A DNA stretch of 64,000 bases from positions 694,157 to 758,156 of the forward strand of contig JBMNIF010000002.1 of the NCBI GenBank assembly GCA_050950765.1, in the 5' to 3' direction. The notes below the pieces were generated by a model, which was not told the DNA's origin, did no database searches, and saw only the letters and a list, made by a program, of their open reading frames with translations. Source of the DNA: Bdellovibrionota bacterium. Its GTDB lineage: Bacteria > Bdellovibrionota_C > UBA2361 > JAAYZI01. Each line of letters opens with the position of its first letter. Position 1 is the stretch's first letter. Below, one piece after another: positions 39,409 to 60,965 of the stretch. The position numbers and the translations under genes are program-made.

Positions 39409-40215
39409 ATGAACGGTGTTGAACACGCTACTGCCGGTATTTTAATATTGATGGTTCTGTTTGTTGCACCCCTTCTGGTTTATATCAGAAAAGCGCGACA
39501 AGGAAAAAAGTTCTATGTGCGCAGGGTGGCAGGCATTGATGCTGTTGATGAGGCTGTGGGGCGTGCCGCAGAATTGGGCAGACCCATCTCTTTTTGTTCC
39601 GGTATAACTACAGTTAGCCCCGTGCTTTATGCCTGTTTAGGTGTGCTATTTCATATCGGGCGTAAGGCAGCACAATATAAGTCAAAGTTACTCCTTCCGC
39701 AGATATATCCTGATGTAATGGCTATCGCTGAAGATACCGTTAGAGATGCTTATCGTGAAGAAGGTAGGTTAAGCATCTTTGATCCGTCAAATATACAATT
39801 CCTTTCGGATGAACAGTTTGCTTTTGCCGCTGGTTATAGCGGTATCGTACAGAGAGAAAAAGTTGCAGCAGCTTTTTTGTTTGGAGAGTTTGCTGCTGAA
39901 TCTCTTGTCTTAGCGGAAGCGGGGCAGGCTGTTGGTGCTATGCAGGTAGCAGCTAGTGTCAGCCCTGAACAGGTGCCGTTTTTTATCTGTACCTGTGACT
40001 ATACCTTGATAGGTGAAGAGCTTTATGCAGCATCTGCTTATTTAACACGTGAGCCGGTGCAGGTCGGTAGTCTACTTGGGCAAGATAAAGCCAAGTTGCT
40101 CTTTTTTATTTTAATTATTATCGGTGTTGTGTTGGCAACACTCTCTTCTATCTATCCGCACCTTCAGATTAAAAATATTGATCACTATATCTTGTTAAAT
40201 TGGGGTGAGTTGTAA
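39409..40215 (+). CDS. Hypothetical membrane protein (operon gene 1 of 6)
   Basis: 268 aa; hydrophobic helices at both termini around a soluble middle domain; no recognisable motif. 218 bp downstream of pilU. Confidence 0.5.
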   Translation: MNGVEHATAGILILMVLFVAPLLVYIRKARQGKKFYVRRVAGIDAVDEAVGRAAELGRPISFCSGITTVSPVLYACLGVLFHIGRKAAQYKSKLLLPQIYPDVMAIAEDTVRDAYREEGRLSIFDPSNIQFLSDEQFAFAAGYSGIVQREKVAAAFLFGEFAAESLVLAEAGQAVGAMQVAASVSPEQVPFFICTCDYTLIGEELYAASAYLTREPVQVGSLLGQDKAKLLFFILIIIGVVLATLSSIYPHLQIKNIDHYILLNWGEL

Positions 40216-41251: not shown

Positions 41252-41257
41252 AAGATC

Positions 41258-42118
41258 ATGTTACTGCAACGACGTCTCATATATATCTTTGTTTTGCTTG
41301 CACTCTCTCTACCTTTAATTTTTGAATACAGTAGTCCGCCTGCACGTATGCCTGCGGCAGAGGCTGCTTTTAAAAGTGTGGAGGATTTAAAAGTTGCAAC
41401 GGGAGAGATCGCTTTTGTAGCTCTTGATTTTGGACCATCAACAAAAGCTGAAAACGAATCACAGGCGTTAGTTTTAATTGAGCATTTAATGCGTAAAAGG
41501 ATCCCGTTCGCCCTTTTTTCTTATTACTTTCAGGCAGAACCGTTTTTAACTTCTATCCCTGAACAGGTCGTAAATAAACTTGAAAAAGAGTATCCCGATC
41601 AGGTTTGGCGTTATGGTCATGATTGGGTCAATCTCGGATATCGACCAGGTGCGGGAATGTTAATTCAAGCCATTCCGAAAAGTGAAAACTTGGTTCAGCT
41701 TTTTAAAAAGGATGCGCGTGGTAATAGCTTAGAACATATCCCTGCTTTTTCAAAAGTGCGCACAATTAAAGATATTAAGTTACTACTGGAGATCACAAGT
41801 TTAACCGGTGTTTTTGATGTTTATATACAGTATTTTCAAGCAGGAAAATATAAGCCTCCCTTTATTCATGGTGCTACCTCTATCAGTGTTCCAGGGGTTT
41901 TTATTTACCTAGATTCCGGTCAACTTAATGGACTTTTAGAGGGCATCTCCGGAGCTGCTTGGTATTCGGAGCTACTTTCAAAAAAATATAAGGATAGAGC
42001 TGTTGATTCAGCGCAGGTGCTTAATACCTCCTTAGGAATTGCACATCTGGTGATAATCTTTTTAATTCTACTCGGCAACGTTGTTGCATTCGTTGAATTG
42101 TATAGGAGGCGTCAATGA
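41258..42118 (+). CDS. Hypothetical bitopic protein with a probable periplasmic domain (operon gene 3 of 6)
   Basis: 286 aa; strong RBS AAGGAGAGG inside the end of gene 2; N-terminal signal/anchor and C-terminal helix. Confidence 0.55.
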   Translation: MLLQRRLIYIFVLLALSLPLIFEYSSPPARMPAAEAAFKSVEDLKVATGEIAFVALDFGPSTKAENESQALVLIEHLMRKRIPFALFSYYFQAEPFLTSIPEQVVNKLEKEYPDQVWRYGHDWVNLGYRPGAGMLIQAIPKSENLVQLFKKDARGNSLEHIPAFSKVRTIKDIKLLLEITSLTGVFDVYIQYFQAGKYKPPFIHGATSISVPGVFIYLDSGQLNGLLEGISGAAWYSELLSKKYKDRAVDSAQVLNTSLGIAHLVIIFLILLGNVVAFVELYRRRQ

Positions 42119-42831
42119 TTGCTGTCGATTATTGGAATGTGTTGGTGGTGATAGTGGCAGGTTTTGCCACCTTAGCTATCTTTAGCTTGCTGATTAAAGA
42201 AAATCCCGTTTATAGGTTTGTTGAACACCTTTATATCGGTATCGCTGCGGGGTTGGGGATTATTTTAAGTATTAAAACTTTTTTGTGGCGGCAACTATTA
42301 CAGCCGATGCTGGGGCTTGATATTGTGCAGTATCCTGACGGAACTTTTTCAAAAGAATATAATTCGTTGTTGCTGTTATATATATTACCGATGCTCTTTG
42401 GGCTTCTGTATTACTTTATCTATTCAAAAAAATATTCATGGTTAGCTAAAATAGTAATCGGTTTTTCTCTCGGTATGAGTGGTGGATTGGCGTTCAAAGG
42501 CTTTTTTAATAAAATTATGCCGCAAATCAGTAGTAGTTTTAAGCCGCTCGTGGTGCTAAAAGATGGCGCTTTAGATTATTGGCAGAGTTTAGAAAACTGC
42601 ATCTTCGTTTTTACCCTTTTGATAGTGATGTATTATTTCTTTTTCTCTTTTAAACATCGTAAGTTGGGAAGGGGAGTTTCAATCTCAGGACGGTGGCTTT
42701 TAATGATCTGTTTTGGAGCTTTCTTCGGTTCTACGGTAATGGCACGTTTATCGTTGTTAGTTGAACGTTTGCAATTTTTATTAGGACCGTGGGCTAGTGT
42801 TTTAAAAGATGCAGTCGGGGTGTGGTTCTAA
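42115..42831 (+). CDS. Hypothetical polytopic membrane protein (operon gene 4 of 6)
   Basis: 238 aa; ATGA start/stop overlap with gene 3; about 6 predicted helices. Confidence 0.5.
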   Translation: MIAVDYWNVLVVIVAGFATLAIFSLLIKENPVYRFVEHLYIGIAAGLGIILSIKTFLWRQLLQPMLGLDIVQYPDGTFSKEYNSLLLLYILPMLFGLLYYFIYSKKYSWLAKIVIGFSLGMSGGLAFKGFFNKIMPQISSSFKPLVVLKDGALDYWQSLENCIFVFTLLIVMYYFFFSFKHRKLGRGVSISGRWLLMICFGAFFGSTVMARLSLLVERLQFLLGPWASVLKDAVGVWF

Positions 42832-42848
42832 AAAATTATTATTAAAAT

Positions 42849-44705
42849 ATGAAGACTAAAGCCGATGAAATAAAGGTAGTGTTAGTAACTGATTGTGGTT
42901 CTACCACTACAAAAGCACTTCTCTTTGAGGATATTGACGGAGTTTGGCAACAAACTTTTCGTGGTGAAGCTCCTACAACAGTAGAAGACCCCGTAGCGGA
43001 TGTAACAGTTGGTGCAAGAAATGCTTTTAAGGAGATCGAAGAATTAAGTGGTAGAAAAATTTTATCTGAGACTTCTTCTGATTCTCCTTTCCTTGAAAAT
43101 AACGGTTATGGTGATGGCATAGACCTCTATCTTTCGACTAGCTCTGCTGGTGGGGGCTTGCAAATGATAGTGGCAGGTGTCGTGCAATACATGACGACAG
43201 AATCTGCAGAGAGGGCGGCTTTAGGTGCAGGCGCTATCGTGATGGATACTATATCGGCAGATGACGGACGTGAAGATCATGAAAAGATAGAGAAGATTCG
43301 TCATTTACGTCCTGATATTGTGCTTCTAACAGGTGGAGTTGATTCAGGATCAAAGGTACACGTTATTGAAACTGCTGAAATATTGAGAGCGGCACAGCCG
43401 CGCCCCCGTTTTGGAAAAACTTTAAAACTTCCCGTTATTTTTGCAGGTAATAAAGATGCAGCAGTAGAGGTTAAAGAGATCTTAGCTCAGATTGCCGATG
43501 TTTCATGCGTAGAAAATGTGCGTCCGACTTTGGAAATGGAGAACTTAGCTCCTGCTCGCGCTGCTATTCATGAATATTTTTTATCGCATGTAATGAGTCA
43601 TTCTCCAGGCTATGACAAATTATTGCGCTGGACTCCCGTTCCGATTATGCCGACCCCTGCTGCAGTCGGAAATATGATTCAGAGCTACGCAGAAAGTGAA
43701 GACTTACAGGTGCTGTGCGTTGATATCGGTGGTGCTACAACTGATGTTTTTAGCGTTTTTAAAGATCTAAGTGGTGTGCCTGTTTTTAATCGTACCGTTT
43801 CTGCCAATTTAGGGATGAGTTATTCGATAGCAAATGTTTTGATCGAGGCTGGCGGAAAAAATATCGGGCGGTGGTTGTGTTCTGAGGTGAGTGAAACAGA
43901 GATTCACGATCGTCTAAGAAATAAGATGATTCGTCCGACCACTATTCCTCAAACGTTGGAGGATCTGTGGTTGGAGCAGGCAGTTTGTAGGGAAGCGTTA
44001 CGACTTTCTTTGCGACATCATAGGTCTCTAGCAGTGGGGTTAAGTGGTTTAAAAAAACAGAAGGGGATCGCAGATATCTTTTTGCAACATGAAAACCGTT
44101 ATGAATTAGTGAATATGATGAAGCTGGATCTGATAATAGGTTCAGGCGGAGTCTTAAGCCATGCTCCGAATCGGATGGAAGCTGCTCTGATGTTGCTGGA
44201 TGGCTTTAAGCCGGAAGGGCTGACGGAGATAGCGGTTGATTCCATCTTTATGATGCCGCATCTGGGAGTGTTTGCTACGTTACATCCGCAAGCAGCGCGA
44301 GAGATCTTTGTAAATAATTGTTTAGTGCGGATCTGTCATGCGGTTGTGCCGGTTTATTCAGGCAAGAGAGTAAAGGGTAGTTCTTTAGCACGAATTTTTT
44401 GGAACTCCGAGCCGGTAGCTGAAGTAAAAGTTGGAGAGGTGACGTGCCTTACTATGAATCAAGAAAAAGGGGTATTGCGGATTGAGCCTTTTGATAGGCG
44501 TGTTGATGTAGGAAGTGGTACGGGAAAAATTTTAGAAAGAGAGATTACACTTAATCCTCATGGATTACTTCTTGATGGTAGAAATCGTCCGTTAATAATG
44601 CCTGAAGATCCTGCGGAAGCGTTAAGATTTGAGCAAGATATCTACCGAAATCTCGGACTTCTTAAAGGGGATCTTCCTGAAGAATTAGTAACAGAGGAGG
44701 TTTGA
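42849..44705 (+). CDS. Actin-fold (ASKHA) ATPase-like protein, hydantoinase-A/GlmL-like (operon gene 5 of 6)
   Basis: 618 aa; phosphate-1-like ...VVLVTDCGSTTTKALLFED... at the N-terminus and phosphate-2-like ...LCVDIGGATTDVFSVF... near residue 290, the order and spacing expected for actin-fold ATPases. Confidence 0.6.
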   Translation: MKTKADEIKVVLVTDCGSTTTKALLFEDIDGVWQQTFRGEAPTTVEDPVADVTVGARNAFKEIEELSGRKILSETSSDSPFLENNGYGDGIDLYLSTSSAGGGLQMIVAGVVQYMTTESAERAALGAGAIVMDTISADDGREDHEKIEKIRHLRPDIVLLTGGVDSGSKVHVIETAEILRAAQPRPRFGKTLKLPVIFAGNKDAAVEVKEILAQIADVSCVENVRPTLEMENLAPARAAIHEYFLSHVMSHSPGYDKLLRWTPVPIMPTPAAVGNMIQSYAESEDLQVLCVDIGGATTDVFSVFKDLSGVPVFNRTVSANLGMSYSIANVLIEAGGKNIGRWLCSEVSETEIHDRLRNKMIRPTTIPQTLEDLWLEQAVCREALRLSLRHHRSLAVGLSGLKKQKGIADIFLQHENRYELVNMMKLDLIIGSGGVLSHAPNRMEAALMLLDGFKPEGLTEIAVDSIFMMPHLGVFATLHPQAAREIFVNNCLVRICHAVVPVYSGKRVKGSSLARIFWNSEPVAEVKVGEVTCLTMNQEKGVLRIEPFDRRVDVGSGTGKILEREITLNPHGLLLDGRNRPLIMPEDPAEALRFEQDIYRNLGLLKGDLPEELVTEEV

Positions 44706-44706
44706 A

Positions 44707-45831
44707 ATGACACGAGCGTTTGCTCCTGGTTTGCAGATAAAGAGAAAAACAGTTGTCAGACGGTTGCGTGAATTGCCTGTAACGGGCGAGGTCTTGGTTG
44801 AAGTAGGACAATATGTAGAAGCAGATCAAGTTGTGGCACGTGCTTCTTTAGAAGGTGAGCTTTTTATTTTTAGAATTGCTGAACAACTTGGCATTGAAAC
44901 GTTTGAAGTTGTTAATGGTCTTAAGGTTGCAGAAGGTGAAAAGATTAAGAAGGGACAACTTATCTGTGAACATCGAGGACTTTTCGGATTGTTTAACAGT
45001 AGATACTTTGCACCAGAAGATGGTGTTGTAGAGTTTATCTCTAAGCGGACTGGACATCTCGGTGTGCGTGCGCCTAGCGAGATGTTGGATATTGAGGCGT
45101 ATATTTCAGGGAGTGTGGTGGAGGTAGATGTAGGAAAATCTGTTTTGATAGAAACAGAAGCCTCCTTTATTCAAGGTATTTTCGGAGTTGGTGGAGAAAG
45201 ACGGGGTGTTCTGAAATGTTTGTCCGTTCCGTTAGATCATGAATTAACAGATCTTGATATTCCTGATGATTGCGCAGGAAGTGTGCTTGTTGGTGGCACC
45301 AAACCGCAGATCTCAGCCATTACTAAAGCAGCAGAACTTGGAGCTTGTGGTATCGTTACAGGCTCTATCGATGATCAAACTTTAAAAGCTTATTTAGGAT
45401 ACGATCTCGGCATTGCATTAACGGGAGATGAGCAGGTTCCTTTAACGTTAATAGTAACGGAAGGTTTTGGTTTTATTCCGTTAGCTAAGCGCATTATGGA
45501 GATGTGCCGAGAGTTAGAAGGTAGTGCTGTTTCAATAAACGGAGCAACACAGGTTCGGGCGGGTGCTATGCGACCGGAGATAATTATACCGCGTGCAGGT
45601 AATGTTTGTAATTTTGAAGATCTTGATAGTCAGGATCTGGAGAAGGGGCTTACAGAGGGGGCGCGGGTGCGTTTGTTGCGAGTACCGTATTTTGGAAAAC
45701 TTGCCACAGTTTTGGAGTTGCCGCAACAGAAGGAGAGGATTGAAACGGGTGCTTATGCCCGTGTTTTAAGGGTAAAGATCGACCACGCTAGTGTGGTGAC
45801 GATACCGCGAGCTAATGTAGAGTTGCTTTAG
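44707..45831 (+). CDS. Hypothetical beta-rich soluble protein (operon gene 6 of 6)
   Basis: 374 aa; AGGAGG RBS overlapping the stop of gene 5; Gly/Val-rich segments (...VVARASLEGELFIFRI..., ...GARVRLLRVPYFGKLATVLELP...) suggest barrel-type folds; no catalytic motif recognised. Confidence 0.55.
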   Translation: MTRAFAPGLQIKRKTVVRRLRELPVTGEVLVEVGQYVEADQVVARASLEGELFIFRIAEQLGIETFEVVNGLKVAEGEKIKKGQLICEHRGLFGLFNSRYFAPEDGVVEFISKRTGHLGVRAPSEMLDIEAYISGSVVEVDVGKSVLIETEASFIQGIFGVGGERRGVLKCLSVPLDHELTDLDIPDDCAGSVLVGGTKPQISAITKAAELGACGIVTGSIDDQTLKAYLGYDLGIALTGDEQVPLTLIVTEGFGFIPLAKRIMEMCRELEGSAVSINGATQVRAGAMRPEIIIPRAGNVCNFEDLDSQDLEKGLTEGARVRLLRVPYFGKLATVLELPQQKERIETGAYARVLRVKIDHASVVTIPRANVELL

Positions 45832-52367: not shown

Positions 52368-52997
52368 TTATTCTACGCTAACGGCGATAATCCGTTCCCA
52401 AAGGTGTTGAACAGGTGTTTTTTCTCCGCTAGCTATAAGGTCGGAAGTCGTCAAGTTATAACACTCTGCAATCGCTTTCGGACGGGCGTGCTTCTCTTTT
52501 TGATTAAGCTTATCCATCTTCGTCAGAACGACTAAAAGATGAACATTAGCTGCAAAGGCGATATCTCGAATAGCTAACTCATCATCTTCTGGATCTCGTC
52601 GACAATCGTTAAGTAAACAGATCGTAGTAAGATGCGGGCGATTTCGGATGTACTCTACTGTTAATTGACTTAGCTTCTCACGTTGAGTCTTGGCAAACTT
52701 TGAATAACCGAATCCTGGTAAGTCAGCTAAAATAAGTTGCAACTCTTTCTCTTCAGCGGAGTCCTGTTCAAGTGCTAGAAGGAGGCTGAAAAGGTTAATC
52801 TCGGTGGTACGTCCTGGTGTCTGACTGGTGCGCGCTAATTTGTGCCGCCCTGTTAATCGATTCACGAGAGTAGATTTTCCGACATTAGACCTGCCGATAA
52901 TGGCGACCTCTGGAATGCTACATTGCGGTAAGGCTGAAAAAGATTGTGCCCCTCCTAAAAAGTCAATATTTTTTATCTTGATAAACATTTTTTCCAC
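52368..52997 (-). CDS. engB: Ribosome biogenesis GTPase YihA/EngB
   Basis: G1 GRSNVGKSTLVN, G3 ...LADLPGFGYS..., G4 ...VLTKMDKL...; about 200 aa. Confidence 0.85.
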   Translation of the reverse strand: MEKMFIKIKNIDFLGGAQSFSALPQCSIPEVAIIGRSNVGKSTLVNRLTGRHKLARTSQTPGRTTEINLFSLLLALEQDSAEEKELQLILADLPGFGYSKFAKTQREKLSQLTVEYIRNRPHLTTICLLNDCRRDPEDDELAIRDIAFAANVHLLVVLTKMDKLNQKEKHARPKAIAECYNLTTSDLIASGEKTPVQHLWERIIAVSVE

Positions 52998-53092
52998 TAT
53001 ATTAAAACAGTCGTGCCGTATTTGCAGTGCCTAAGTTTTTCATTGCGTTAAAATAGCTTATCCGTATGTGTAATATCTAAGCTTCTACTGTG

Positions 53093-54616
53093 TTAAAATT
53101 GTTGTACAGTACTTGCAATACCTAAGGCACTTTTTACGGCGCTAATCTTATCGATAACGTGCGCCTTATACCACGTTGGATCCCACCACTCTCTTGGATT
53201 TGCCGGAATATTATTAACCCAAAGCTCAACCGTAAAGCCGTTTGTTAAAGCAAAACCGGAATCTCCGATAGTGCCGATAGTTTGCCCCGCTTGTACTGTA
53301 TCTCCTAGCTTAACGACATAGTTTCTTAAGTTGCTATAAAGTGAGAAGAGACCTAAGCCGTGATCAATTACCACAACATTTCCGTAAGTCCCAATATTCC
53401 CCGTAAAATGCACAATTCCGGAGTTAATGGTACGAACTTCACCGTTTTGAGCATCCGATAAAAAGTTAAACCCTAATTGTTTAACGGTGCCGATGTTGGA
53501 TCCGTTATAGATATAATTAAGGGTGTGACCGAACTCTGTCCTTGCTGGACCTAACGGTTTAACAAAAGCACCTTGCCAAAGCTTTTCAGATCGTCCACCT
53601 GTCCTTAGTTGAGAGAGTATTTCTTCCCTATCGAGGCGGCGTAATTCCTTATTAACCAATTCAAAGTTCTGAATTTTCTGTGTAGTGGAGTTAGAAGGAT
53701 CGTTCCAAGTGTCTTCATCACGTAGAGTAGGAGAGAGGGGTTCAAGTTTGTTTAAACCTTTTTTGATTAAATCTGGAATGGTTTTTTGTAAAAACTGCTC
53801 TGGAACTTGGTTTCTTAAAGAGGCGTATCTGATGGGAGCGATTTTATTGTAGAAGTTCATGCTCTTAACGTTACCGACACGGTCTTCAGCAAAAAGTGTT
53901 GGAGTTTGTTTACTGATCTCAGTAGTCAGATCTATGGCGTAGATACAGACATAAAGGTTGGGAGATTGTTCAAAATCTAAATCTAAAAAACTTGCATTAA
54001 ACCCATTAAAGATACGATCCCCTACCTTTACGCCGGAGAGTGCGAGGTTCTCATCTGTCGCTGTATAGAAGATTAGTTGAGAGCCGCCGTGCACGGCGTT
54101 GTGTTGTGTTGAAACAACGGCGAGTTTAGGTTTCTTATAATCAACGATTAGGTCGTAGCTCTGCTCCGCCGAATTAAACCAGAGACTCTTATCAAAAGCT
54201 TTGATTACTAATTGAACACTTCCTTCATTAAGCTCACTTTCTTGAGCATTGAAAGTAACTTCAATATTTTTACTATGAAGTTTTTTAGAGCCTACACTTA
54301 AGGTGCCGTTAAAAATGTCACGTTTTGAACCTTTTTGTATTAAAGAGATCTTCGCTTCAAAGAGACCAGCGCCCTCATCCGAAATATTCCACCGAAAAGT
54401 AACGGGTCTTGCGCCGATTCCGTGAGGTATCTCCCCTATGACTTTAATAGTCGGAGGTGTTACCTCTAGGAAGGTAGTGTAGAGCCATTTCCATCCAAAA
54501 AAAGCAGGGACGCTGAGTAGCCCGAAGCAGATTAAAACTATAATTAGGATGCGTAGAGGACGACGCCTACTTTTTTGAGGACGCTCGTTTGTTTGTGAAT
54601 TATCAACGCTAGTCAT
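53093..54616 (-). CDS. LytM/M23-domain protein, probably non-catalytic
   Basis: N-terminal anchor and a C-terminal M23-like core (...GNVVVIDHGLGLFSLYSNL...). The canonical HxxxD is HTLNY and the HxH position is ...TNGFTVE..., so the zinc ligands appear to be absent. Confidence 0.7.
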   Translation of the reverse strand: MTSVDNSQTNERPQKSRRRPLRILIIVLICFGLLSVPAFFGWKWLYTTFLEVTPPTIKVIGEIPHGIGARPVTFRWNISDEGAGLFEAKISLIQKGSKRDIFNGTLSVGSKKLHSKNIEVTFNAQESELNEGSVQLVIKAFDKSLWFNSAEQSYDLIVDYKKPKLAVVSTQHNAVHGGSQLIFYTATDENLALSGVKVGDRIFNGFNASFLDLDFEQSPNLYVCIYAIDLTTEISKQTPTLFAEDRVGNVKSMNFYNKIAPIRYASLRNQVPEQFLQKTIPDLIKKGLNKLEPLSPTLRDEDTWNDPSNSTTQKIQNFELVNKELRRLDREEILSQLRTGGRSEKLWQGAFVKPLGPARTEFGHTLNYIYNGSNIGTVKQLGFNFLSDAQNGEVRTINSGIVHFTGNIGTYGNVVVIDHGLGLFSLYSNLRNYVVKLGDTVQAGQTIGTIGDSGFALTNGFTVELWVNNIPANPREWWDPTWYKAHVIDKISAVKSALGIASTVQQF

Positions 54617-54633
54617 GGCAATTTTGCAAAAAA

Positions 54634-55635
54634 TTAAAATTCAAAAGCTTCTAGATTATCTCCGAAACGCTCTAAGATAAAAACCTTTAACTTCTCCTTA
54701 ATACGATTTTCAATTTGACGTACCCTCTCACGACTTAAAGATAGCTTCTCTGAGAGATCCTGCAAAGTCGCTTTCTCTTCAGAGAGGAGTCGTTCCTGAT
54801 AAATGATGGCTTCATTGGGGTTTAAAGTGTCAAGAAAATCTTTTAAAGCGAGAGAGATCTGTGCCTTTAACTGTACGTTAGAGAGGATCTCTTCAGCTGT
54901 CTCTGTTTCTGAAGGAAAGAGAGAGAGTAACGGAGTGTCTGGATCATTTTGTAAGGGAGCATCAACGCTGAGATCTGGTGTGCTCAAACGTTGCTCCATC
55001 TCTATTACTTCACTCTCTTTGACGTTAAGTTTTTCCGCTAACAACTTCGGCTCTGGGGAAAAACCCTCACGCTCTAGCCTCTCTTTCTCTTTTTTTAAAT
55101 TAAAAAAAAGTCTACGTTGCGCTTGTGTAGTGCCGATCTTCACCATACGCCAGTTGGCGATAATATAACGAACAAGATAAGCTCTGATCCACCAAACTGC
55201 ATACGATGGAAGTCTTACGCCGCGATACGGGTCAAAATTTTTAACAGCCTCCATTAGACCGATATTCCCTTCCTGAATCAGATCTAAGATGCTTCGTGCG
55301 GCTTTTTCATAATCACGTGTAATTTTAACAACAAGCCATAAATTACTCGTGATAAGTTTATAGACAGCATCTAAGTCATTATGCTCTTTATATCTGACAG
55401 CAAGCTCATGTTCCTCTTCTCTACTTAGTGGCGGATAACGACGTATTTCACGTAGGTACGCTCGTAAAGGATCGTACGGAACTACCTCCTGAAGACGTGG
55501 GGGTGGCAGCAGCTCCTTTTTTGTACAATCCAAGAGTCCTGCAACTTTAGCAGTTTTGTCAGGTAGGAGCTCTATTGTAGCAGAATCTTCCTTAAGAGGT
55601 GGCTTATCTGTGGTTTGCGTCAAGTCTTTTGTCAT
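54634..55635 (-). CDS. rpoH: RNA polymerase sigma-32 (heat-shock sigma factor), with N-terminal extension
   Basis: Region 2 ...LIQEGNIGLMEAVKNFDPYRGVRLPSYAVWWIRA... and the RpoH box ...WRMVKIGTTQAQRRLFFNLKK..., plus region 4 ...LSLSRERVRQIENRIKEKLK.... Confidence 0.8.
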   Translation of the reverse strand: MTKDLTQTTDKPPLKEDSATIELLPDKTAKVAGLLDCTKKELLPPPRLQEVVPYDPLRAYLREIRRYPPLSREEEHELAVRYKEHNDLDAVYKLITSNLWLVVKITRDYEKAARSILDLIQEGNIGLMEAVKNFDPYRGVRLPSYAVWWIRAYLVRYIIANWRMVKIGTTQAQRRLFFNLKKEKERLEREGFSPEPKLLAEKLNVKESEVIEMEQRLSTPDLSVDAPLQNDPDTPLLSLFPSETETAEEILSNVQLKAQISLALKDFLDTLNPNEAIIYQERLLSEEKATLQDLSEKLSLSRERVRQIENRIKEKLKVFILERFGDNLEAFEF

Positions 55636-55981
55636 TGTTCGGCGAATCCTAACAGAAAGAGAGGAAATGCTACAAGCGGTTACGCAAATAAAACAAACCT
55701 TGTTTTATTTTTTTACTATACAAAATCTTCACCCCTTCGGAAAGGCGTTAAGTTGGAAAGCGCATCTGTCGATCTCTTAAGACAGTTCTTGTAGTGCCCT
55801 GAGTTTAAAGACTCAATTAGGGGATTTCTGTGTAAGAACCGAGATAGAAGGCAAAACGGAACTTTAGGCTACGTTAAAGCATAGTTGTGCAGAGTGTCCC
55901 TGTTTTAAGTCCGTTTTTTAAGTATCTACTTTAAAGCGGGAGCAATCTGCGGCTGTTCAGTTTTTGTTAAGGAGCGTGAAT

Positions 55982-57676
55982 ATGCAATCACGAGTTGGTG
56001 ATCTGCTGGTTCGTGCGGGGTTGTTGACCGAAGATCAGTTAAATAAAGCCAAAGAGTCACAAGCAGCTACGGGTGGGTTATTGGCTAGCGCCATCATTGC
56101 GCTTGGTGCGATCACTGAACAAGATTTCGCAGATCTTCTGAGTGAACATTATGCTGTGCCTATCGTTACCCTTGACGATTATCAGATTGAAGATAGTGCC
56201 GTAAACCTGATTCCGCAAAACCTTGCTACAAAGTACGGTTTAATGCCAGTTTTAAAGGAACAGAGCACTTTAACCATAGCCATGATTGATCCGTCAAATG
56301 TTGTGGCATTAAACGATATAAAATTTATTACAGGCTTAGATGTTCGTGCAGTTATTGCACTTGAAAGTGATATCAAAGCAAAACAGGAAAAATATTACGA
56401 AGACCATATTTCATACAGCAGTATCATTGATGATATTGAAAGTGAAGACTTTGAAGTCGTTGCTAACAATGAAGAGCTTGATTTAAGAGAGCTTGAAAAG
56501 GCAACGGAGGATGCGCCTGTTGTAAAACTTGTTAACGCTATCTTGATGGATGCCATTAAGAAAGGTGCTTCCGATATTCATCTGGAGCCTTATGAAAAGG
56601 TATTTAGAGTTAGATTCCGTATCGATGGTGTGTTGTATGAAATTATGAAACCTCCGATGAAGTTGAAGAATGCTATTACTTCACGCCTAAAAATTATGGC
56701 TGATCTCGACATTGCAGAACGGAGGTTACCACAAGATGGACGTATTAAATTAAAGATCGGTTCTAATAAAGAGATGGATTTCCGTGTAAACGTTCTACCT
56801 ACTTTATTTGGGGAGAAGGTAGTTTTACGTTTACTTGATAAGTCTAATTTGCAACTTGATATGACGAAGTTGGGCTTCTTTCCAGAACAGCTGGAGCATT
56901 TTAAAGATGCCATCAGTAAACCACACGGCATGGTGCTTGTAACGGGACCAACGGGTTCAGGTAAGACTACAACACTTTATTCGGCGCTAGCGGATCTAAA
57001 TAAAGTAGGCACCAATATTAGTACAGCAGAAGATCCTGTTGAATTTAATCTAACAGGTATTAATCAAGCTCAGATGCACGATGAGATCGGATTTAATTTT
57101 GCTTCAGCACTACGTGCATTTTTGCGACAAGATCCTGATGTAGTTATGGTTGGTGAGATTAGAGATTATGAAACTGCTGAAATAGGCATTAAAGCTTCCT
57201 TAACGGGTCACTTGGTGCTCTCAACGTTACATACTAATGACGCACCATCGACTATTAGCCGTCTGTTAAATATGGGTGTGGAACCGTTTTTGGTAGCATC
57301 TTCCGTTAATCTAATTGTGGCGCAACGTTTAGCGCGACGTGTTTGTAGTCAGTGTGCACAGGAAGTGCACTTAAATCCTGAATTGTTGGTAAATATCGGT
57401 ATCCCTGCGGAAGAGGCTAGGCATATTAAGGTAATGCAAGGGAGTGGTTGTGAAGCGTGTTCAGGGACGGGGTATAAAGGGCGTGTTGCTTTATACGAAG
57501 TGATGCCGATGATGGAGAGTATTAGAGAGTTAATCCTTAATGGTGCTTCTACAACAGAGCTAAAAAGGGAGTGTATCAAACAAGGTATGCTGACTTTAAG
57601 AGCTTCCGCTTTATTAAGATTAAAAGAAGGTATGACAAGTTTGGAGGAGGTTCTCCGTGTTACAGCAGCTGATTAA
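55982..57676 (+). CDS. pilB: Type IV pilus assembly ATPase PilB (GspE family)
   Basis: N-terminal GspE-N/MshEN-like domain (...VGDLLVRAGLLTEDQLNKAKESQ...), Walker A GPTGSGKTTT, and a tetracysteine motif (CSQC...CEAC). Start set at the ATG with AGGAG RBS; the track ORF begins 18 nt upstream at a non-ATG codon. Confidence 0.9.
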   Translation: MQSRVGDLLVRAGLLTEDQLNKAKESQAATGGLLASAIIALGAITEQDFADLLSEHYAVPIVTLDDYQIEDSAVNLIPQNLATKYGLMPVLKEQSTLTIAMIDPSNVVALNDIKFITGLDVRAVIALESDIKAKQEKYYEDHISYSSIIDDIESEDFEVVANNEELDLRELEKATEDAPVVKLVNAILMDAIKKGASDIHLEPYEKVFRVRFRIDGVLYEIMKPPMKLKNAITSRLKIMADLDIAERRLPQDGRIKLKIGSNKEMDFRVNVLPTLFGEKVVLRLLDKSNLQLDMTKLGFFPEQLEHFKDAISKPHGMVLVTGPTGSGKTTTLYSALADLNKVGTNISTAEDPVEFNLTGINQAQMHDEIGFNFASALRAFLRQDPDVVMVGEIRDYETAEIGIKASLTGHLVLSTLHTNDAPSTISRLLNMGVEPFLVASSVNLIVAQRLARRVCSQCAQEVHLNPELLVNIGIPAEEARHIKVMQGSGCEACSGTGYKGRVALYEVMPMMESIRELILNGASTTELKRECIKQGMLTLRASALLRLKEGMTSLEEVLRVTAAD

Positions 57677-57713: not shown

Positions 57714-58931
57714 ATGGCACTTTATGTTTGGGAGGGAAAAAACAGCGCTGGTGTTACTGTTAAAGGTGAGATTGAAGCGAAAACACCGCAAGCTGTTTTT
57801 AATGCTTTGCGTGCGCAGCAGATTACCCCAATAGCTAGTAAGATTAAGGAAAAGGGGAAGGGGCTTGATATGGAGATCAAGCTTCCTGGCATGGGACCGA
57901 AGGTGCGCGATAAAGATGTCGTTGTTTTTACAAGACAGTTTGCAACCATGATTGATGCGGGACTTCCTCTGGTGCAGGCTTTGCACATATTAGGTGCAAA
58001 TCATGAGAATAAAGCTTTTAAAAAAGTTTTACTGGGGGTTAAAGATAGTGTAGAAGCTGGCGGAACTTTAGCTGAAGGACTGAGTAAATATCCGAAGGCG
58101 TTTGATGAGCTTTTTGTAAATATGGTTAAAGCTGGTGAAAGTGGTGGTATCTTGGATATCATCCTTGAAAGACTCTCAGTGCAACTTGAAAAAAGTATGA
58201 AGTTAAAGCGTGAAGTTAAGACAGCTATGATCTATCCTTCTGTTATTGTTGCCACTGCTATTATCGTAACTGTTGTCTTGTTAGTCTTCGTTATTCCGAC
58301 CTTTGCTGAGATGTTTGAAGACTTCGGATCTGCCCTACCGTTACCAACACGAATAGTGATGATGATCTCTGATTTCTTTATAAATAACGCTCTTATTATC
58401 TTCCCTGGAGCGATAGCGCTTTTTTTCCTATTTATGTTTTTTGCAAAAACGCCACGTGGAAAGGAAGTGCTTCATCCTGTCGCCTTAAAGTCACCTGTTT
58501 TTGGTGAGTTGATTAGAAAAGTTTCTGTGGCGCGTTTTAGTAGAACGTTAAGTACTATGCTCAGTTCAGGTGTGCCGATTTTAGATGCACTTAGTATCTG
58601 TGCCAAAACTGCAGGGAATATCGTGGTGGAGCGTGATATCAAGACAGCTCGTGTTGCGATCTCTGAAGGAAAAACAATGGGAGAGCCGCTTTCAAAATCT
58701 GCTGTTTTTCCACCGATGGTTACTTCAATGATAATGGTTGGAGAGTCGACGGGTGCTGTCGATGCTATGTTAGCAAAGATTGCAGACTTTTATGAAGATG
58801 AAGTTGATACAGCTGTTACAGGCTTAAAACAGTTGATAGAGCCTATAATTATCCTCGTCTTAGGTGTGATTATCGGTGGTTTGGTTGTGGCGATGTATCT
58901 ACCGATCTTCAAACTGGGTAGCGTTGTGTAA
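57714..58931 (+). CDS. pilC: Type IV pilus inner-membrane platform protein PilC (GspF family)
   Basis: 405 aa with two GspF-type repeats and three hydrophobic segments; directly follows pilB. Confidence 0.9.
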   Translation: MALYVWEGKNSAGVTVKGEIEAKTPQAVFNALRAQQITPIASKIKEKGKGLDMEIKLPGMGPKVRDKDVVVFTRQFATMIDAGLPLVQALHILGANHENKAFKKVLLGVKDSVEAGGTLAEGLSKYPKAFDELFVNMVKAGESGGILDIILERLSVQLEKSMKLKREVKTAMIYPSVIVATAIIVTVVLLVFVIPTFAEMFEDFGSALPLPTRIVMMISDFFINNALIIFPGAIALFFLFMFFAKTPRGKEVLHPVALKSPVFGELIRKVSVARFSRTLSTMLSSGVPILDALSICAKTAGNIVVERDIKTARVAISEGKTMGEPLSKSAVFPPMVTSMIMVGESTGAVDAMLAKIADFYEDEVDTAVTGLKQLIEPIIILVLGVIIGGLVVAMYLPIFKLGSVV

Positions 58932-58976: not shown

Positions 58977-60965
58977 ATGAATGATCTGATACGGGCAGAA
59001 ACCGTTAAAATAAAGGAAAAGACATTAGTCAGCGTTAGGTTATGTCTGCTGGCAGGAGCTTTGATCTCTGCTTCATTCTTTCAATTTACGGTTTATAAAA
59101 AATTTCCAGAATTGAGCGATCTCTTCTCACGTAGTGTCCTGTGTCTTGTTACCTTTATGATATTTTCGTTAATCTGGATCTCTTTAAAAAAGACAAGCAC
59201 TACTTGGATCCTCCTTGCAACAGTGATCGATATTTTTATTGTGACGGTAGCTGTTTATTTAACAGGTGCTTCTATCAGTCCGTTACTTGTTTTGTATCTT
59301 CCGCTCTTAATGGGGTGTGTAATATTAACTTCAAGAAGATGCGGTTTTATTGCCGCAGGAGTGGCACTTGGCGTATATGCTTTATTACTGATAGCGATCT
59401 CTTATAACCTTTTACCGAATGATGGAGGGTCTGAAATTGCTTTAACAACGGGGCTGCTTTTACAGTTTTTAGGGCTTGCTTTTGCTATGGTGTTAGTTGT
59501 GTATGCAACTGATTTTTTACGCAAAGCACTTTATGCCGGAACTGAACTGGTTGCGCAGCACCAAAAAAATTTAATTGAGCTTAATGCCGCTCAAGAGATT
59601 CTGATCGAAGGAATTCCTGATAGTGTTATTGTTGTAGATAATGGTGGGCTTATCGTAAGGATAAATCAACCAGCTGCTGACCTGTTTTGTGTTGATAAAA
59701 AAGATGCACTTGGTAAAGAGTTTAAAGAATTTTTTACCAAGTGTTTTCCGGATCACGATGATTTTCAATTTGAACTTGGGCAACATGAAGTAAATCTGAT
59801 TGATCTTACAGGAAGAGAGTTTCGTTTTGAGTATTCATTTCAAGCGATATCGAATACAGAGGGAGAAAAGACGGGGGCATTTTATGTTTTACAAGATATT
59901 ACAAAATTAAGATCAGCAGAGGATTTGCTTTCTTTGCAGGAGCGTATGGCGGAGCTTCTTTCAGAGCAGAGAGCTTCAGTAGTAACACATCTGAAACTTA
60001 ATAAGTTTGTCGGAGAAAGTAAGGCCATGCGAGATGTCTTTGAATTGATCGCCCGTGTAGCACCGTCTGAAGCAAATGTGTTGATTAGTGGAGAGTCGGG
60101 AACAGGTAAAGAGCTTGTTGCAAAAGCTATTCATTTAAACGGCAGTCGTGCTACCAAACCGTTTGTAGCGTTAAACTGTGGCGCTGTACCGGAAACGTTA
60201 CTTGAATCTGAACTGTTCGGATATAAAAAAGGTGCTTTTACCGGTGCTGATTCAGATCAGATCGGGATGTTCCAACAAGCAGATGGGGGTACACTTTTTC
60301 TCGATGAAATAGGCGAAATGCCGCTACACCTCCAAGCAAAACTACTACGAGTAGTGCAAGAAAAGAAAGTGCGCATGCTTGGTGCTGAGCAGGAGAAGGC
60401 AGTCGATGTGCGGATCCTTTCCGCTACGAACCGTAATTTGGAAGAAGAGGTTGCAAACGGTCAATTTAGACAAGATCTTTTCTATCGTTTAAATGTGGTG
60501 GCGATAAAAATCCCGCCATTAAGGGAGCGCAAAGAAGACCTGCCGCTTCTAGTTAATTCTATCCTTTCATCTTTAGCTCGTGATGGAGTGATGCCCGTTG
60601 TTACACCTGAAGCGATGAAGTGTTTACTTCATTATGATTATCCTGGGAATGTGCGAGAGTTGGAAAATGCTCTTGAGCGTGCAGTGGTGTTTGGCGGGGA
60701 GGTGATCTTGCCTGCGCATCTGACAGAGTGCATCAGAGAGGCGGCTGCCTATAATAAAAAAAGTGAAGTAGCTGCACTTGAAGAGATCGTTAATGCTGCT
60801 GATGCGATAAAGTTACCTGTTAATCTTGAGGAAGTTTTAGGAGATCTTGAGAAACAGTATTTAGAATCGGCTTTAAAGGCTAGTGCTGGCGTTAAAGGTA
60901 AGGCTGCTGCGTTACTCGGACTTACGCCCAGATCTTTTAGGTACAGGTTGCAAAAATTTGAATAA
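58977..60965 (+). CDS. Membrane-anchored sigma-54-dependent transcriptional activator (TM sensor - PAS - AAA+ - HTH), PilR-like output without receiver domain
   Basis: N-terminal ~190 aa with 5-6 predicted helices; PAS-like region (...EGIPDSVIVVDNGGLIVRINQ...); sigma-54 AAA+ core (GESGTGKELVAKAIH, ...GAFTGA..., ...GGTLFLDEIGEMP..., ...RLNVVAIKIPPLRERKEDL...); C-terminal Fis-type HTH. No REC, HisKA or HATPase motifs seen. Confidence 0.85.
   Translation: MNDLIRAETVKIKEKTLVSVRLCLLAGALISASFFQFTVYKKFPELSDLFSRSVLCLVTFMIFSLIWISLKKTSTTWILLATVIDIFIVTVAVYLTGASISPLLVLYLPLLMGCVILTSRRCGFIAAGVALGVYALLLIAISYNLLPNDGGSEIALTTGLLLQFLGLAFAMVLVVYATDFLRKALYAGTELVAQHQKNLIELNAAQEILIEGIPDSVIVVDNGGLIVRINQPAADLFCVDKKDALGKEFKEFFTKCFPDHDDFQFELGQHEVNLIDLTGREFRFEYSFQAISNTEGEKTGAFYVLQDITKLRSAEDLLSLQERMAELLSEQRASVVTHLKLNKFVGESKAMRDVFELIARVAPSEANVLISGESGTGKELVAKAIHLNGSRATKPFVALNCGAVPETLLESELFGYKKGAFTGADSDQIGMFQQADGGTLFLDEIGEMPLHLQAKLLRVVQEKKVRMLGAEQEKAVDVRILSATNRNLEEEVANGQFRQDLFYRLNVVAIKIPPLRERKEDLPLLVNSILSSLARDGVMPVVTPEAMKCLLHYDYPGNVRELENALERAVVFGGEVILPAHLTECIREAAAYNKKSEVAALEEIVNAADAIKLPVNLEEVLGDLEKQYLESALKASAGVKGKAAALLGLTPRSFRYRLQKFE

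What the first reader, a model, noticed from the sequence alone, without database searches (positions are those of the whole stretch)
58977..60965. Sigma-54 activator fused to a multi-pass membrane sensor and PAS domain, with no receiver domain, next to pilB-pilC
In many type IV pilus loci pilB-pilC is followed by the PilS/PilR two-component pair (PilS a 6-TM histidine kinase, PilR a REC-AAA+-HTH activator). Here a single 662-aa protein has an N-terminal 5-6-helix membrane domain, a PAS domain, the sigma-54 AAA+ core (GESGTGKE, GAFTGA) and a Fis-type HTH. I see no receiver, HisKA or ATPase motifs. This reads as a one-component, membrane-tethered enhancer-binding protein that bypasses phosphorelay. 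No pilin gene follows it in this window.
Basis: partly seen in the sequence, partly recalled or inferred. Interest (0 to 1): 0.5.

Follow-up and report, generated by a model that had tools for sequence, protein, structure and literature searches.

The report
PilS–PilR fusion: membrane-embedded sigma-54 activator
This gene encodes a type IV pilus regulator in which the membrane sensor half of the PilS kinase is fused directly to the sigma-54-activating ATPase half of PilR, with every phosphotransfer part deleted. It belongs to a conserved but apparently undescribed family of integral-membrane transcription activators.

Summary
ORF 58977–60965 (+) encodes a 662-aa protein with a PilS-type six-helix membrane domain, one PAS domain, an intact sigma-54 AAA+ core and a Fis-type HTH. 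It has no receiver, HisKA or HATPase_c domain. It lies 45 nt after pilB-pilC.

It is not a one-off. About 55 protein clusters of 610–717 aa from Bdellovibrionota/Oligoflexia-labelled metagenome assemblies share the architecture, and they form one clade.

The N-terminal half aligns to genuine PilS kinases through the membrane domain, the PAS domain and the first turns of the kinase dimerisation helix, stopping just before the phospho-accepting histidine. The C-terminal half resumes at the start of the PilR ATPase domain. The gene sits where pilS-pilR sit in Geobacter-type pilus clusters.

In all four relatives with DNA, and a fifth with a gene table only, a pilin gene follows. The four with DNA have a near-consensus sigma-54 promoter and upstream TGACA-N5-TGTCA palindromes.

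The best explanation is a one-component PilS'–'PilR fusion whose membrane sensor gates the ATPase directly. The signal (the membrane pilin pool) and activity while membrane-embedded are inferred.

The window has no pilin gene and no palindrome, so its own target is unknown. Verdict: new variant of a known kind, moderate to high interest.

The parts
58977..60965 (+). Whole gene: 662-aa PilS'-'PilR fusion, an integral-membrane sigma-54 activator
   Evidence: ORF; Pfam architecture; family of about 55 clusters with the same architecture
59025..59510 (+). PilS-type six-helix transmembrane sensor domain (residues about 17-178). R21 in TM1 and D85 in TM3 are invariant in the N-terminal family alignment and at least 90% conserved in the 44-sequence alignment. 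The motif TG(G/A)xxSP...LY lies at 95-107.
   Evidence: PF25323 at 30.4 bits; hydropathy; AF2 helices; conservation; same residues present in PilS kinases
59511..59612 (+). Cytoplasmic continuation of TM6: a signalling helix leading into the PAS domain (residues 179-212)
   Evidence: AF2 single helix 157-212
59616..59906 (+). PAS domain (residues 214-310)
   Evidence: PAS_9 E 7.6e-8, PAS E 6.2e-6; PAS-type strand/helix pattern in the AF2 model; aligns to the PilS PAS domain
59901..59963 (+). Linker helix (residues 309-329, ..KLRSAEDLLSLQERMAELL). It is homologous to the PilS helix that runs into DHp helix 1 and ends about 8-10 residues before where the phospho-accepting His would be.
   Evidence: Alignment with five PilS kinases; hhalign; AF2 helix 309-329
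59964..60008 (+). Fusion junction: a poorly conserved, low-confidence segment (residues 330-344) between PilS-derived and PilR-derived parts
   Evidence: pLDDT 61-72 and no secondary structure; variable columns
60009..60761 (+). Sigma-54 AAA+ core plus lid (residues 345-595), with Walker A 372-379, GAFTGA 419-424, Walker B 440-447 and GNVRELEN 557-564
   Evidence: PF00158 E 1e-73 and PF25601; motifs; invariant columns; PDB relatives NifA, ZraR, NtrC1 and FleQ
60837..60959 (+). Fis-type HTH DNA-binding domain (residues 621-661). The window protein has T650-P651 where at least 90% of the family has N-F.
   Evidence: PF02954 E 9.9e-12; family alignment
55964..57676 (+). pilB, the type IV pilus assembly ATPase; first gene of the apparent pilB-pilC-regulator operon
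   Evidence: TIGR02538 at 796.5 bits, above cut-off; conserved synteny
57714..58931 (+). pilC, the platform protein; it ends 45 nt before the regulator gene
   Evidence: T2SSF E 2.9e-65; PilC NCBIfam hits

Best explanation
The gene encodes a functional one-component version of the PilS-PilR pilin regulatory system.

Origin (inferred from homology and synteny): an ancestral adjacent pilS-pilR pair lost, in frame, the PilS DHp/His box and catalytic ATPase domain and the PilR receiver domain with its linker. What remains is PilS(6TM + PAS + first turns of the DHp helix), a linker of about 15 aa, then PilR(AAA+ + lid + Fis HTH).

Shown here:
- the architecture;
- homology of each half;
- absence of all phosphotransfer modules;
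- intact ATPase and sigma-54-contact motifs;
- conservation as one clade;
- position in the pilS-pilR slot;
- in relatives, a downstream pilin gene with a sigma-54 promoter and upstream palindromes.

Inferred mechanism:
1. The protein sits in the inner membrane with both termini in the cytoplasm.
2. Its PilS-type membrane domain senses the pool of pilin subunits in the membrane, as PilS does in Pseudomonas.
3. The signal passes along the TM6 helix, the PAS domain and the linker helix.
4. That directly permits or blocks assembly and ATPase activity of the AAA+ ring. Sensor conformation thus replaces phosphorylation as the switch.
5. The ring, bound to TGACA-N5-TGTCA enhancer sites, remodels sigma-54 RNA polymerase at the pilin promoter while still membrane-anchored.

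In this particular genome the pilin gene and the enhancer sites lie outside the window, so the local target is unknown.
For: Architecture and lack of REC, HisKA and HATPase_c: (none of about 55 family clusters carries PF00072, PF00512 or PF02518).

PilS homology of residues about 4-326: Pfam 6TM_PilS above cut-off. The only hit to the N-terminal half alone is a PilS-type kinase. hhalign of the family profile against a genuine PilS gives probability 99.2%, E 7e-20, over PilS residues 14-334. The TM1 Arg, TM3 Asp, TGGxxS, LY and Tyr134 positions are shared, and the alignment ends just before the AHEIRNPL His box.

PilR affinity of the C-terminal half: the best non-family hits are REC-AAA-HTH proteins. 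The three I checked lie in pilB-pilT-pilC-pilS-pilR-pilin clusters.

Synteny: pilB-pilC-regulator is found in 6 of 6 relatives. A pilin gene lies downstream in 5 of 5 relatives that have downstream sequence.

Sigma-54 promoters upstream of the pilin gene in 4 of 4 relatives with DNA: TGGCACCCGACTTGCT, TGGCATCCGATTTGCT (twice) and TGGCACTGCACTTGCT.

Palindromes: TGACA-N5-TGTCA sites with 0-1 mismatch occur 100-150 nt upstream of those promoters and in the sigma-factor/pilB intergenic region. By my estimate about 0.02 perfect sites are expected per 22 kb.

Functional integrity: Walker A, Walker B, GAFTGA, sensor and arginine positions are invariant across 44 members.

Single origin: the family is monophyletic, 52 of 52 members in one clade, in 42 of 50 bootstraps.

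Rarity: 0 of 133 unrelated EBPs have two or more TM-like segments.

PAS is dispensable: a member lacking PAS (P0211, 6TM joined directly to AAA+) shows the membrane domain can be coupled straight to the ATPase.

PilS pilin-sensing model: PMC6058289 and PMC13170266.
Against: No experiment exists for any family member.

The signal, the direction of control and activity while membrane-embedded are all inferred.

The window has no pilin gene, no TGACA-N5-TGTCA site with one mismatch or fewer, and no excess of sigma-54 promoter matches. Its HTH also deviates at two near-invariant positions. Its regulon may therefore differ from that of its relatives.

In the rough NJ tree the immediate sister of the fused clade was a single REC-type EBP from Sedimentibacter, not the PilRs. 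Mean core identity to PilRs (51.5%) is only slightly above identity to generic EBPs (47.5%). PilR ancestry of the C-terminal half therefore rests mainly on best hits and synteny.

Presence of rpoN, and absence of a second canonical pilS/pilR pair in the same genome, could not be checked.
Confidence: 0.75

Rival explanations
1. Anchor-and-release. The membrane domain holds an otherwise active EBP at the membrane. A signal triggers proteolytic cleavage in the unstructured junction (residues about 330-344), releasing a soluble AAA+-HTH fragment that activates transcription in the cytoplasm.
For: The junction is the only long low-confidence, unconserved segment between the sensor and the ATPase. 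Membrane sequestration is a documented way of silencing a bEBP: RedR2 is held by BtdS (PMC10084136). A ring of six subunits with 36 TM helices reaching promoter DNA is sterically demanding (inference).
Against: No protease gene is linked. The adjacent M23 peptidases are cell-wall hydrolase types. No conserved cleavage motif is visible in the junction. The linker helix homologous to the PilS signalling helix is strongly conserved (LRSxEEQLxxQERMA), which suggests conformational coupling rather than mere tethering. Cleavage would be irreversible, which suits a homeostatic feedback loop poorly.
Confidence: 0.12
2. In this genome the protein has been repurposed. It still works as a membrane one-component EBP, but it controls genes other than the major pilin and may respond to a signal other than the pilin pool.
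For: Unlike all five relatives with downstream sequence, the window has no pilin gene after the regulator and no family-type palindrome anywhere. T650-P651 replace the near-invariant N-F at the start of the recognition helix. In Pseudomonas, PilSR controls genes beyond pilA (PMC6058289).
Against: The gene is still in the pilB-pilC operon position, with the same flanking synteny as its closest relative L086. The sensor residues shared with PilS are retained. The pilin gene may simply have moved elsewhere in the genome.
Confidence: 0.2
3. It still depends on phosphorelay or another partner. A separate kinase, receiver or PilS-like protein elsewhere in the genome controls it by protein-protein contact, so the fusion does not truly bypass two-component signalling.
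For: The rest of the genome is unseen. The window does hold an orphan receiver-domain protein and an Hpt protein at 10859-12073. Some EBPs are controlled in trans (PspF by PspA, FleQ by FleN; cited in PMC10084136).
Against: The protein has no receiver domain or His box to accept or donate phosphate. No kinase or receiver gene is linked in any of six relatives. The REC/Hpt genes are 47 kb away and are not EBP-related.
Confidence: 0.06
4. Artefact or decaying gene: the ORF is a recent deletion product or mis-assembly of adjacent pilS and pilR and is not functional.
For: The architecture is what a simple in-frame deletion between neighbouring genes would give.
Against: About 55 clusters at 90% identity and about 25 at 50% identity, from independent samples and sources, keep the same architecture at 36-56% identity to the window protein. 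All catalytic motifs are invariant and the synteny is conserved. A 99%-identical copy exists in an independent assembly (P0002).
Confidence: 0.02

Closest known systems
PilS-PilR two-component system (Pseudomonas aeruginosa, Myxococcus xanthus, Geobacter; also reported in the Bdellovibrio bacteriovorus HD100 pilB-pilT1-pilC-pilS-pilR operon, PMC4237445)
   Same: Same six-helix PilS membrane domain with the same conserved intramembrane Arg and Asp, and the same PAS domain. Same NtrC-class AAA+ core and Fis HTH. Same place in the pilus gene cluster between pilC and pilA. In relatives, the same kind of sigma-54 pilin promoter with upstream enhancer sites.
   Different: It is one polypeptide instead of two. 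The DHp His box, the HATPase_c domain and the receiver domain are all missing, so no phosphotransfer is possible. The transcription activator itself is an integral membrane protein. pilT is not between pilB and pilC here.
Soluble one-component bEBPs with PAS, GAF or V4R sensor domains (NifA, NorR, XylR/DmpR, TyrR, PrpR, DhaR)
   Same: The sensor domain sits on the same chain as the AAA+ core and controls it without phosphorylation. The PAS-AAA+-HTH order matches the best NCBIfam partial hits (PrdR, TyrR, DhaR; all below their cut-offs).
   Different: Those proteins are cytoplasmic. This one has a six-helix membrane domain N-terminal to the PAS domain. None of the 133 unrelated EBPs examined here had two or more TM-like segments.
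Membrane-integrated one-component transcription factors (ToxR, CadC, TcpP, BcrR; named from my own general knowledge, not tested here)
   Same: The principle of sensing in or across the membrane and binding DNA with the same membrane-anchored polypeptide.
   Different: There is no sequence relationship. Those are sigma-70-type activators with winged-helix or similar domains and one to four TM helices. None is an AAA+ machine that must oligomerise and hydrolyse ATP to remodel sigma-54 polymerase.
RedR2/BtdS and PspF/PspA (bEBPs controlled at the membrane in trans; PMC10084136)
   Same: bEBP activity is tied to the membrane.
   Different: In those systems a separate membrane or peripheral protein sequesters a soluble EBP. 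Here the membrane domain is covalently part of the EBP.

Membership tests
Bacterial enhancer-binding protein (sigma-54 activator, AAA+) | AAA+ core with Walker A, Walker B, sensor and arginine residues | tested here: met
   PF00158 E 1e-73. GESGTGKE at 372-379, LFLDEIGE at 440-447, GNVRELEN at 557-564. These positions are invariant across 44 family members.
Bacterial enhancer-binding protein (sigma-54 activator, AAA+) | GAFTGA loop that contacts sigma-54 | tested here: met
   GAFTGA at 419-424. G419, F421, T422 and A424 are invariant.
Bacterial enhancer-binding protein (sigma-54 activator, AAA+) | C-terminal Fis-type HTH that binds upstream enhancer sites | tested here: met
   PF02954 E 9.9e-12 at residues 621-661. 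Candidate TGACA-N5-TGTCA sites occur in relatives. DNA binding itself was not tested.
Bacterial enhancer-binding protein (sigma-54 activator, AAA+) | Sigma-54 (rpoN) present in the same genome, and a -24/-12 target promoter | not testable with these tools
   rpoN is not in the window. The window shows no excess of -24/-12 matches. Relatives do have such promoters upstream of their pilin genes.
PilR (NtrC-family response regulator of pilin transcription) | N-terminal receiver domain with a phospho-accepting Asp | tested here: not met
   No PF00072 match at E <= 0.1, and none in about 55 family clusters. The AF2 model shows a PAS fold, not a receiver fold, before the AAA+ core. The alignment with four PilRs shows their REC region has no counterpart.
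PilR (NtrC-family response regulator of pilin transcription) | AAA+-HTH closest to PilR orthologues | tested here: inconclusive
   The best non-family hits are genuine PilRs by genomic context. However, the NJ tree did not place PilRs as the immediate sister, and the identity margin over generic EBPs is small.
PilR (NtrC-family response regulator of pilin transcription) | Encoded next to a pilin gene driven by a sigma-54 promoter | tested here: not met
   Not met in the window: there is no pilin ORF. Met in relatives L001, L002, L086 and L088.
PilS (pilin-sensing histidine kinase) | Six-helix PilS-type membrane domain | tested here: met
   PF25323 at 30.4 bits against cut-off 27. hhalign against a genuine PilS gives probability 99.2%. 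Conserved Arg, Asp and TGGxxS-LY positions are shared. Six helices in the model.
PilS (pilin-sensing histidine kinase) | DHp domain with a phospho-accepting His (HisKA) | tested here: not met
   No PF00512 match. The alignment stops about 8-10 residues before the PilS AHEIRNPL box. The only His in residues 300-345 is H338; it lies in the variable, poorly conserved junction of the family alignment.
PilS (pilin-sensing histidine kinase) | Catalytic HATPase_c domain | tested here: not met
   No PF02518 match in the window protein or in any family member.
PilS (pilin-sensing histidine kinase) | Direct intramembrane binding of pilin | not testable with these tools
   Known for P. aeruginosa PilS (PMC6058289). 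Here only the conservation of membrane-domain residues can be shown.
One-component signal transduction system | Input and DNA-binding output on one chain, with no phosphotransfer domains | tested here: met
   6TM + PAS input, AAA+-HTH output, and no REC, HisKA, HATPase_c or Hpt domain.

The most novel reading that the evidence does not exclude
This may be the first recognised family of integral-membrane sigma-54 activators. In this reading, a six-helix PilS sensor binds pilin subunits inside the membrane and gates assembly of an AAA+ ring on the same polypeptide. Sigma-54 RNA polymerase would then be remodelled at a promoter held against the inner membrane, with no phosphorylation step at all.
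Probability: 0.45. Interest if true: 0.72.

Novelty: new variant of a known kind. Interest (0 to 1): 0.58.

Why it matters
Enhancer-binding proteins are treated as soluble cytoplasmic ATPases that assemble into rings on DNA. A conserved family in which the ATPase is covalently tied to a six-helix membrane domain would show that sigma-54 activation can run from the membrane.

It is also a natural rewiring experiment. The PilS sensor, which normally sets a kinase/phosphatase balance, here drives an AAA+ output directly. Comparing the two forms could show how the PilS membrane/PAS module transmits its signal, and how little is needed to gate an EBP.

For type IV pilus biology, it offers a minimal one-protein pilin feedback loop in a phylum that includes bacterial predators, for which pili are reported to be required for predation in Bdellovibrio bacteriovorus (PMC4237445). 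It also explains why homology-based annotation can report pilS/pilR as missing, or label these proteins simply 'PilR' or 'sigma-54 interacting regulator'.

Tried and rejected
- **The single genome-contig scan.** I therefore could not identify the source genome or map the family across named species.
- **L038.** It looked like a fused form in Thermodesulfobacteriota (query residues 57-662 matched in about 2 kb). It turned out to be an ordinary pilR gene followed by pilS and was kept as a comparator.
- **Profile search of 1.84 billion representatives with the N-terminal half.** Multi-PAS proteins swamped the list. Only hit lengths and coverage could be used. The PAS part should have been left out.
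- **Literature.** The Kilmury & Burrows 2016 PNAS paper and the Studholme & Dixon 2003 survey are not held. I make no claim about which PilS residues bind pilin, or about earlier mentions of membrane EBPs. Five full-text searches found no description of a PilS-PilR fusion or an integral-membrane bEBP.
- **NJ tree.** It did not recover PilR as the immediate sister group.
- **Window scans.** Searches for sigma-54 promoters, the family palindrome and a terminator after the gene were all negative or at chance level.
- **Taxonomy by GatB.** Apart from an identical Logan contig, the best hits were only about 60% identical, and the few names given were mixed: Bdellovibrionota, Pseudomonadota and plain 'bacterium'. 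The lineage is poorly sampled. Its placement in Bdellovibrionota rests on family membership and synteny.
- **Cryptic receiver domain.** Rejected.
Full report
**Observation.** Pfam finds these domains:
- a PilS-like six-helix membrane domain (PF25323, residues 21-163, 30.4 bits against a cut-off of 27);
- a PAS domain (214-310);
- the sigma-54 interaction domain (345-510, E 1e-73);
- the AAA+ lid (516-595);
- a Fis-type HTH (621-661).

No receiver, HisKA or HATPase_c match appears even at E <= 0.1. Walker B is at 440-447 and GNVRELEN at 557-564.

Hydropathy gives six hydrophobic segments. An AlphaFold2 model built on 44 homologues (mean pLDDT 85.6) gives the following:
- six membrane helices, the last continuing as one long helix (157-212) into the PAS domain;
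- a PAS fold at 216-307;
- a helix at 309-329;
- an unstructured stretch at 330-348;
- then the AAA+ core and the HTH.

The lysines and arginines lie at the N-terminus, in the TM2-3 and TM4-5 loops, and after TM6. That distribution fits both termini being cytoplasmic. There is no space and no fold pattern for a hidden receiver domain.

The two upstream genes are PilB (TIGR02538, 796 bits) and PilC. The regulator starts 45 nt after pilC. A motif scan of all six frames finds no prepilin-type ORF anywhere in the window.

**It is a family, not an accident.** A search with the full protein returned about 55 clusters of 610-706 aa with the same precomputed architecture: PF25323, PAS, PF00158, lid and HTH_8, and never PF00072, PF00512 or PF02518. 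They are 36-56% identical to the window protein, and one further hit is 99% identical, from an independent assembly.
- The few names given by sources are Bdellovibrionota, Bdellovibrionales, Oligoflexia, Deltaproteobacteria and one 'Dadabacteria' MAG.
- In a search of 1.84 billion cluster representatives with the N-terminal profile, every hit covering the whole N-terminal half in one stretch was 640-717 aa long, which is the fused size. That is about 25 clusters at 50% identity. No kinase of about 540 aa scored as high.
- The family alignment shows all ATPase and sigma-54-contact positions invariant. It also shows a strongly conserved membrane motif: R21 in TM1, D85 in TM3, and TGGxxSPFLFLYLP across TM3-TM4.
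- One member (P0211, 574 aa) lacks the PAS domain, so the membrane domain joins straight to the ATPase.
- Among 133 unrelated EBPs that I happened to hold, none had two or more TM-like segments. Most full-length family members had four to seven by the same crude count, a few had two or three, and the zero counts were fragments or sequences where my motif search failed.

**Where each half comes from.**

*N-terminal half.* Searched alone, it found a single hit, a PilS-type kinase. The family's N-terminal profile aligns to a genuine PilS (locus L038, encoded next to a pilR) with hhalign probability 99.2% and E 7e-20. The alignment covers PilS residues 14-334, which is the membrane domain, the PAS domain and the helix that runs into the kinase dimerisation (DHp) domain. 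A joint alignment with five PilS kinases and four PilRs shows the junction:
- Fused proteins and kinases share the TM1 Arg, the TM3 Asp, the TGGxxS and LY motifs, Tyr134 and the PAS core.
- Window QDITKLRSAEDLLSLQERMAELL lines up with PilS [37 protein letters not shown]. The fused proteins therefore keep the first turns of DHp helix 1 and end about 8-10 residues before the phospho-accepting histidine.
- After about 15 variable residues the sequence resumes at KFVGESKAM, which matches PilR GLIGKSKKM at the start of the AAA+ domain.
- The PilR receiver domain and its coiled-coil linker have no counterpart.

*C-terminal half.* The best hits outside the family are REC-AAA-HTH proteins. The three I checked (P0058, P0059, P0071) all lie in Geobacter-type clusters with the order pilB-pilT-pilC-pilS-pilR-pilin-ABC transporter.

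*Caveat on ancestry.* A rough neighbour-joining tree of the AAA+-HTH region recovers the fused family as one clade (52 of 52 members, 42 of 50 bootstraps). Its immediate sister, however, is a single receiver-type EBP from a Sedimentibacter MAG (L007), not the PilRs. Mean identity to PilRs (51.5%) is only slightly higher than to generic EBPs (47.5%). The PilS origin of the front half is well supported. The PilR origin of the back half rests on best hits and gene position.

**Genomic context.** Six relatives were examined:
- In all six the gene directly follows pilB-pilC. The gap after pilC is about 0-10 nt in the five relatives whose coordinates I compared.
- In most of them the same divergent sigma-70-family gene and M23 peptidase seen in the window lie upstream.
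- Five of them have sequence downstream of the regulator, and all five have a pilin gene 0.3-2.6 kb away. One of these was uncalled (L001 12455-12859, KGFTLIELLVV).
- In L001 and in the JGI contig that carries P0010, an ABC transporter follows further downstream, as in the Geobacter clusters.

The closest relative (L086, 56% identity) has the same order as the window: GTPase, M23 peptidase, sigma factor, pilB, pilC, regulator. It then has a 121-aa pilin gene. In the window the regulator is followed instead by 126 nt and a convergent M23/LysM peptidase gene.

**Regulatory DNA in relatives.** All four relatives with DNA carry a near-consensus -24/-12 promoter upstream of the pilin gene:

| Locus | Position | Sequence |
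|---|---|---|
| L001 | 12314 | TGGCACCCGACTTGCT |
| L002 | 14491 | TGGCATCCGATTTGCT |
| L086 | 8914 | TGGCATCCGATTTGCT |
| L088 | 11124 | TGGCACTGCACTTGCT |

- The palindrome TGACA-N5-TGTCA, with 0-1 mismatch, lies 100-150 nt further upstream in each locus (L001 12194, L002 14351, L086 8794, L088 11016).
- By eye each is followed by a weaker second copy in the sequences printed. I did not score these.
- The same palindrome occurs in the intergenic region between the sigma-factor gene and pilB (L001 6866, L086 3418, L088 4665 and 4727, L087 4899). I found no convincing -24/-12 element there.
- A perfect 10-base site is expected about 0.02 times per 22 kb (my estimate), so these placements are not chance.
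- This is the layout expected of an enhancer-dependent pilin promoter.

**The window is different.** It has no palindrome with one mismatch or fewer anywhere in 64 kb, and none upstream of pilB. Sigma-54 promoter matches are at chance level: 4 observed against 2.7 expected. The window protein also has T650-P651 at the start of the recognition helix, where at least 90% of the family has N-F. The local target of this particular protein is therefore unknown.

**Mechanism: what is shown and what is inferred.**

*Shown:* a conserved, intact sigma-54 AAA+ activator is covalently joined to a PilS-type membrane/PAS sensor and lacks every phosphotransfer module. In relatives it sits beside a sigma-54 pilin promoter.

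*Established elsewhere:* P. aeruginosa PilS uses its six membrane segments to interact directly with PilA. Accumulation of pilins in the inner membrane leads PilS to dephosphorylate PilR and lower pilA transcription (PMC6058289, PMC13170266).

*Inferred:*
1. The fused protein senses the membrane pilin pool through the retained PilS residues.
2. It passes the signal down the TM6 helix, the PAS domain and the conserved linker helix.
3. It thereby allows or prevents assembly and ATP hydrolysis of the AAA+ ring. Sensor conformation does the job that receiver phosphorylation does in PilR.
4. The protein would have to work while anchored in the membrane, with promoter DNA brought to it.

*The main alternative* is proteolytic release at the unstructured junction. 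I rate it lower because the linker helix is strongly conserved and no protease is linked.

**Comparison with known systems.** B. bacteriovorus HD100 is reported to have a separate pilS and pilR after pilC (PMC4237445). Two other predators of the phylum are reported to lack pilS/pilR (PMC6060248, PMC13147790). I could not check whether those genomes carry this fused gene.

The protein passes the tests for a bEBP and for a one-component system. It fails the defining tests for PilR (no receiver) and for PilS (no His box, no kinase domain). It should be filed as a derived fusion of the two, not as a member of either.

Five full-text searches found no description of such a fusion or of any integral-membrane bEBP. 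The nearest case was RedR2, a soluble bEBP held at the membrane by a separate protein. The held library is incomplete, and two key papers were unavailable. Lack of prior description is therefore likely, not proven. Databases already hold these proteins under generic names such as 'sigma 54-interacting transcriptional regulator', 'PilR' and 'PAS domain-containing protein'.

**Source organism.** The rest of the window is ordinary chromosomal content: gatA/gatB, ilvD, a class A penicillin-binding protein, mfd and two PilT/PilU-like ATPases. Apart from an identical Logan contig, GatB's best matches are only about 60% identical, and the few names given are mixed. The organism belongs to a poorly sampled lineage. 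Family membership and synteny tie it to Bdellovibrionota/Oligoflexia-labelled MAGs.

**Verdict.** This is a new variant of a known kind: a PilS'-'PilR one-component fusion, and a rare example of a multi-pass membrane sigma-54 activator. Confidence that it is a functional fusion regulator of this type is about 0.75. Confidence in pilin-pool sensing and activity while membrane-bound is about 0.45. Interest is 0.58.

Noticed in passing
window 36889-37950 and 38027-39190 (+): Two adjacent PilT/PilU-like ATPases (T2SSE domain, 353 and 387 aa) lie about 17 kb upstream of pilB. In this lineage pilT is not between pilB and pilC as it is in Geobacter-type clusters.
   Followed up: partly
window 39409-45831 (+): Right after the PilT-like genes comes a run of co-oriented genes: DUF6754, three ORFs with no Pfam match, a PF13941 'MutL protein' family member (618 aa) and another unknown ORF. 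Function unknown.
   Followed up: no
window 52368-55635 (-); also L001, L002, L086, L088 and the JGI contig of P0010: A sigma-70-family gene (regions 1.2, 2, 3 and 4; 333 aa) and an M23 peptidase are divergently transcribed from pilB. This pairing is conserved in five of the six relatives, and an EngB-like GTPase follows in the window and in L086. This hints at a functional link between that sigma factor and the pilus operon.
   Followed up: partly
L001 6866, L086 3418, L088 4665 and 4727, L087 4899: The TGACA-N5-TGTCA palindrome also lies between the sigma-factor gene and pilB in relatives, but no -24/-12 promoter was found there. It could mean autoregulation, or control of a sigma-70 promoter or of the divergent sigma gene.
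   Followed up: partly
window 60924-60929 (residues 650-651 of the regulator): The window protein and its 99% twin have Thr-Pro where at least 90% of the family has Asn-Phe at the start of the HTH recognition helix. This may mean an altered DNA specificity, and it fits the absence of the family palindrome in the window.
   Followed up: partly
P0211 (574 aa, from the representative search): A family variant in which the 6TM_PilS domain (25-200) joins the sigma-54 AAA+ domain (251-417) with no PAS domain between them.
   Followed up: partly
window about 6000-10000: A low-GC stretch (0.31-0.32 against about 0.41) contains a DDE_Tnp_1 transposase (7307-8980, -) and a short N6_Mtase/Eco57I-like fragment (9105-9680, -). 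It is probably an insertion with a decayed restriction-modification gene.
   Followed up: no
window 18040-22554 (+): ABC_tran, ABC-2 membrane, ABC_transp_aux and DUF4340 genes lie in a row. To my knowledge this resembles the GldA/GldF/GldG gliding-motility ABC transporter arrangement.
   Followed up: no
window 10859-12073 (-): An orphan receiver-domain protein (276 aa, REC at 127-240) lies next to a small Hpt-domain protein. It is a phosphorelay fragment unrelated to the EBP.
   Followed up: no
L001 12040-12095 and 6630-6700: A long GC-rich inverted repeat (ACCAGGGAGGAC...GTCCTCCCTGGT) occurs both just after the regulator gene and in the sigma/pilB intergenic region of this MAG. It could be a repeated hairpin element or a terminator.
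   Followed up: no
L002 15142-17067 and the JGI contig of P0010: In two relatives the pilin gene is followed by a TMEM260_N-domain membrane protein of about 640-656 aa. It is possibly a pilin glycosyltransferase.
   Followed up: no
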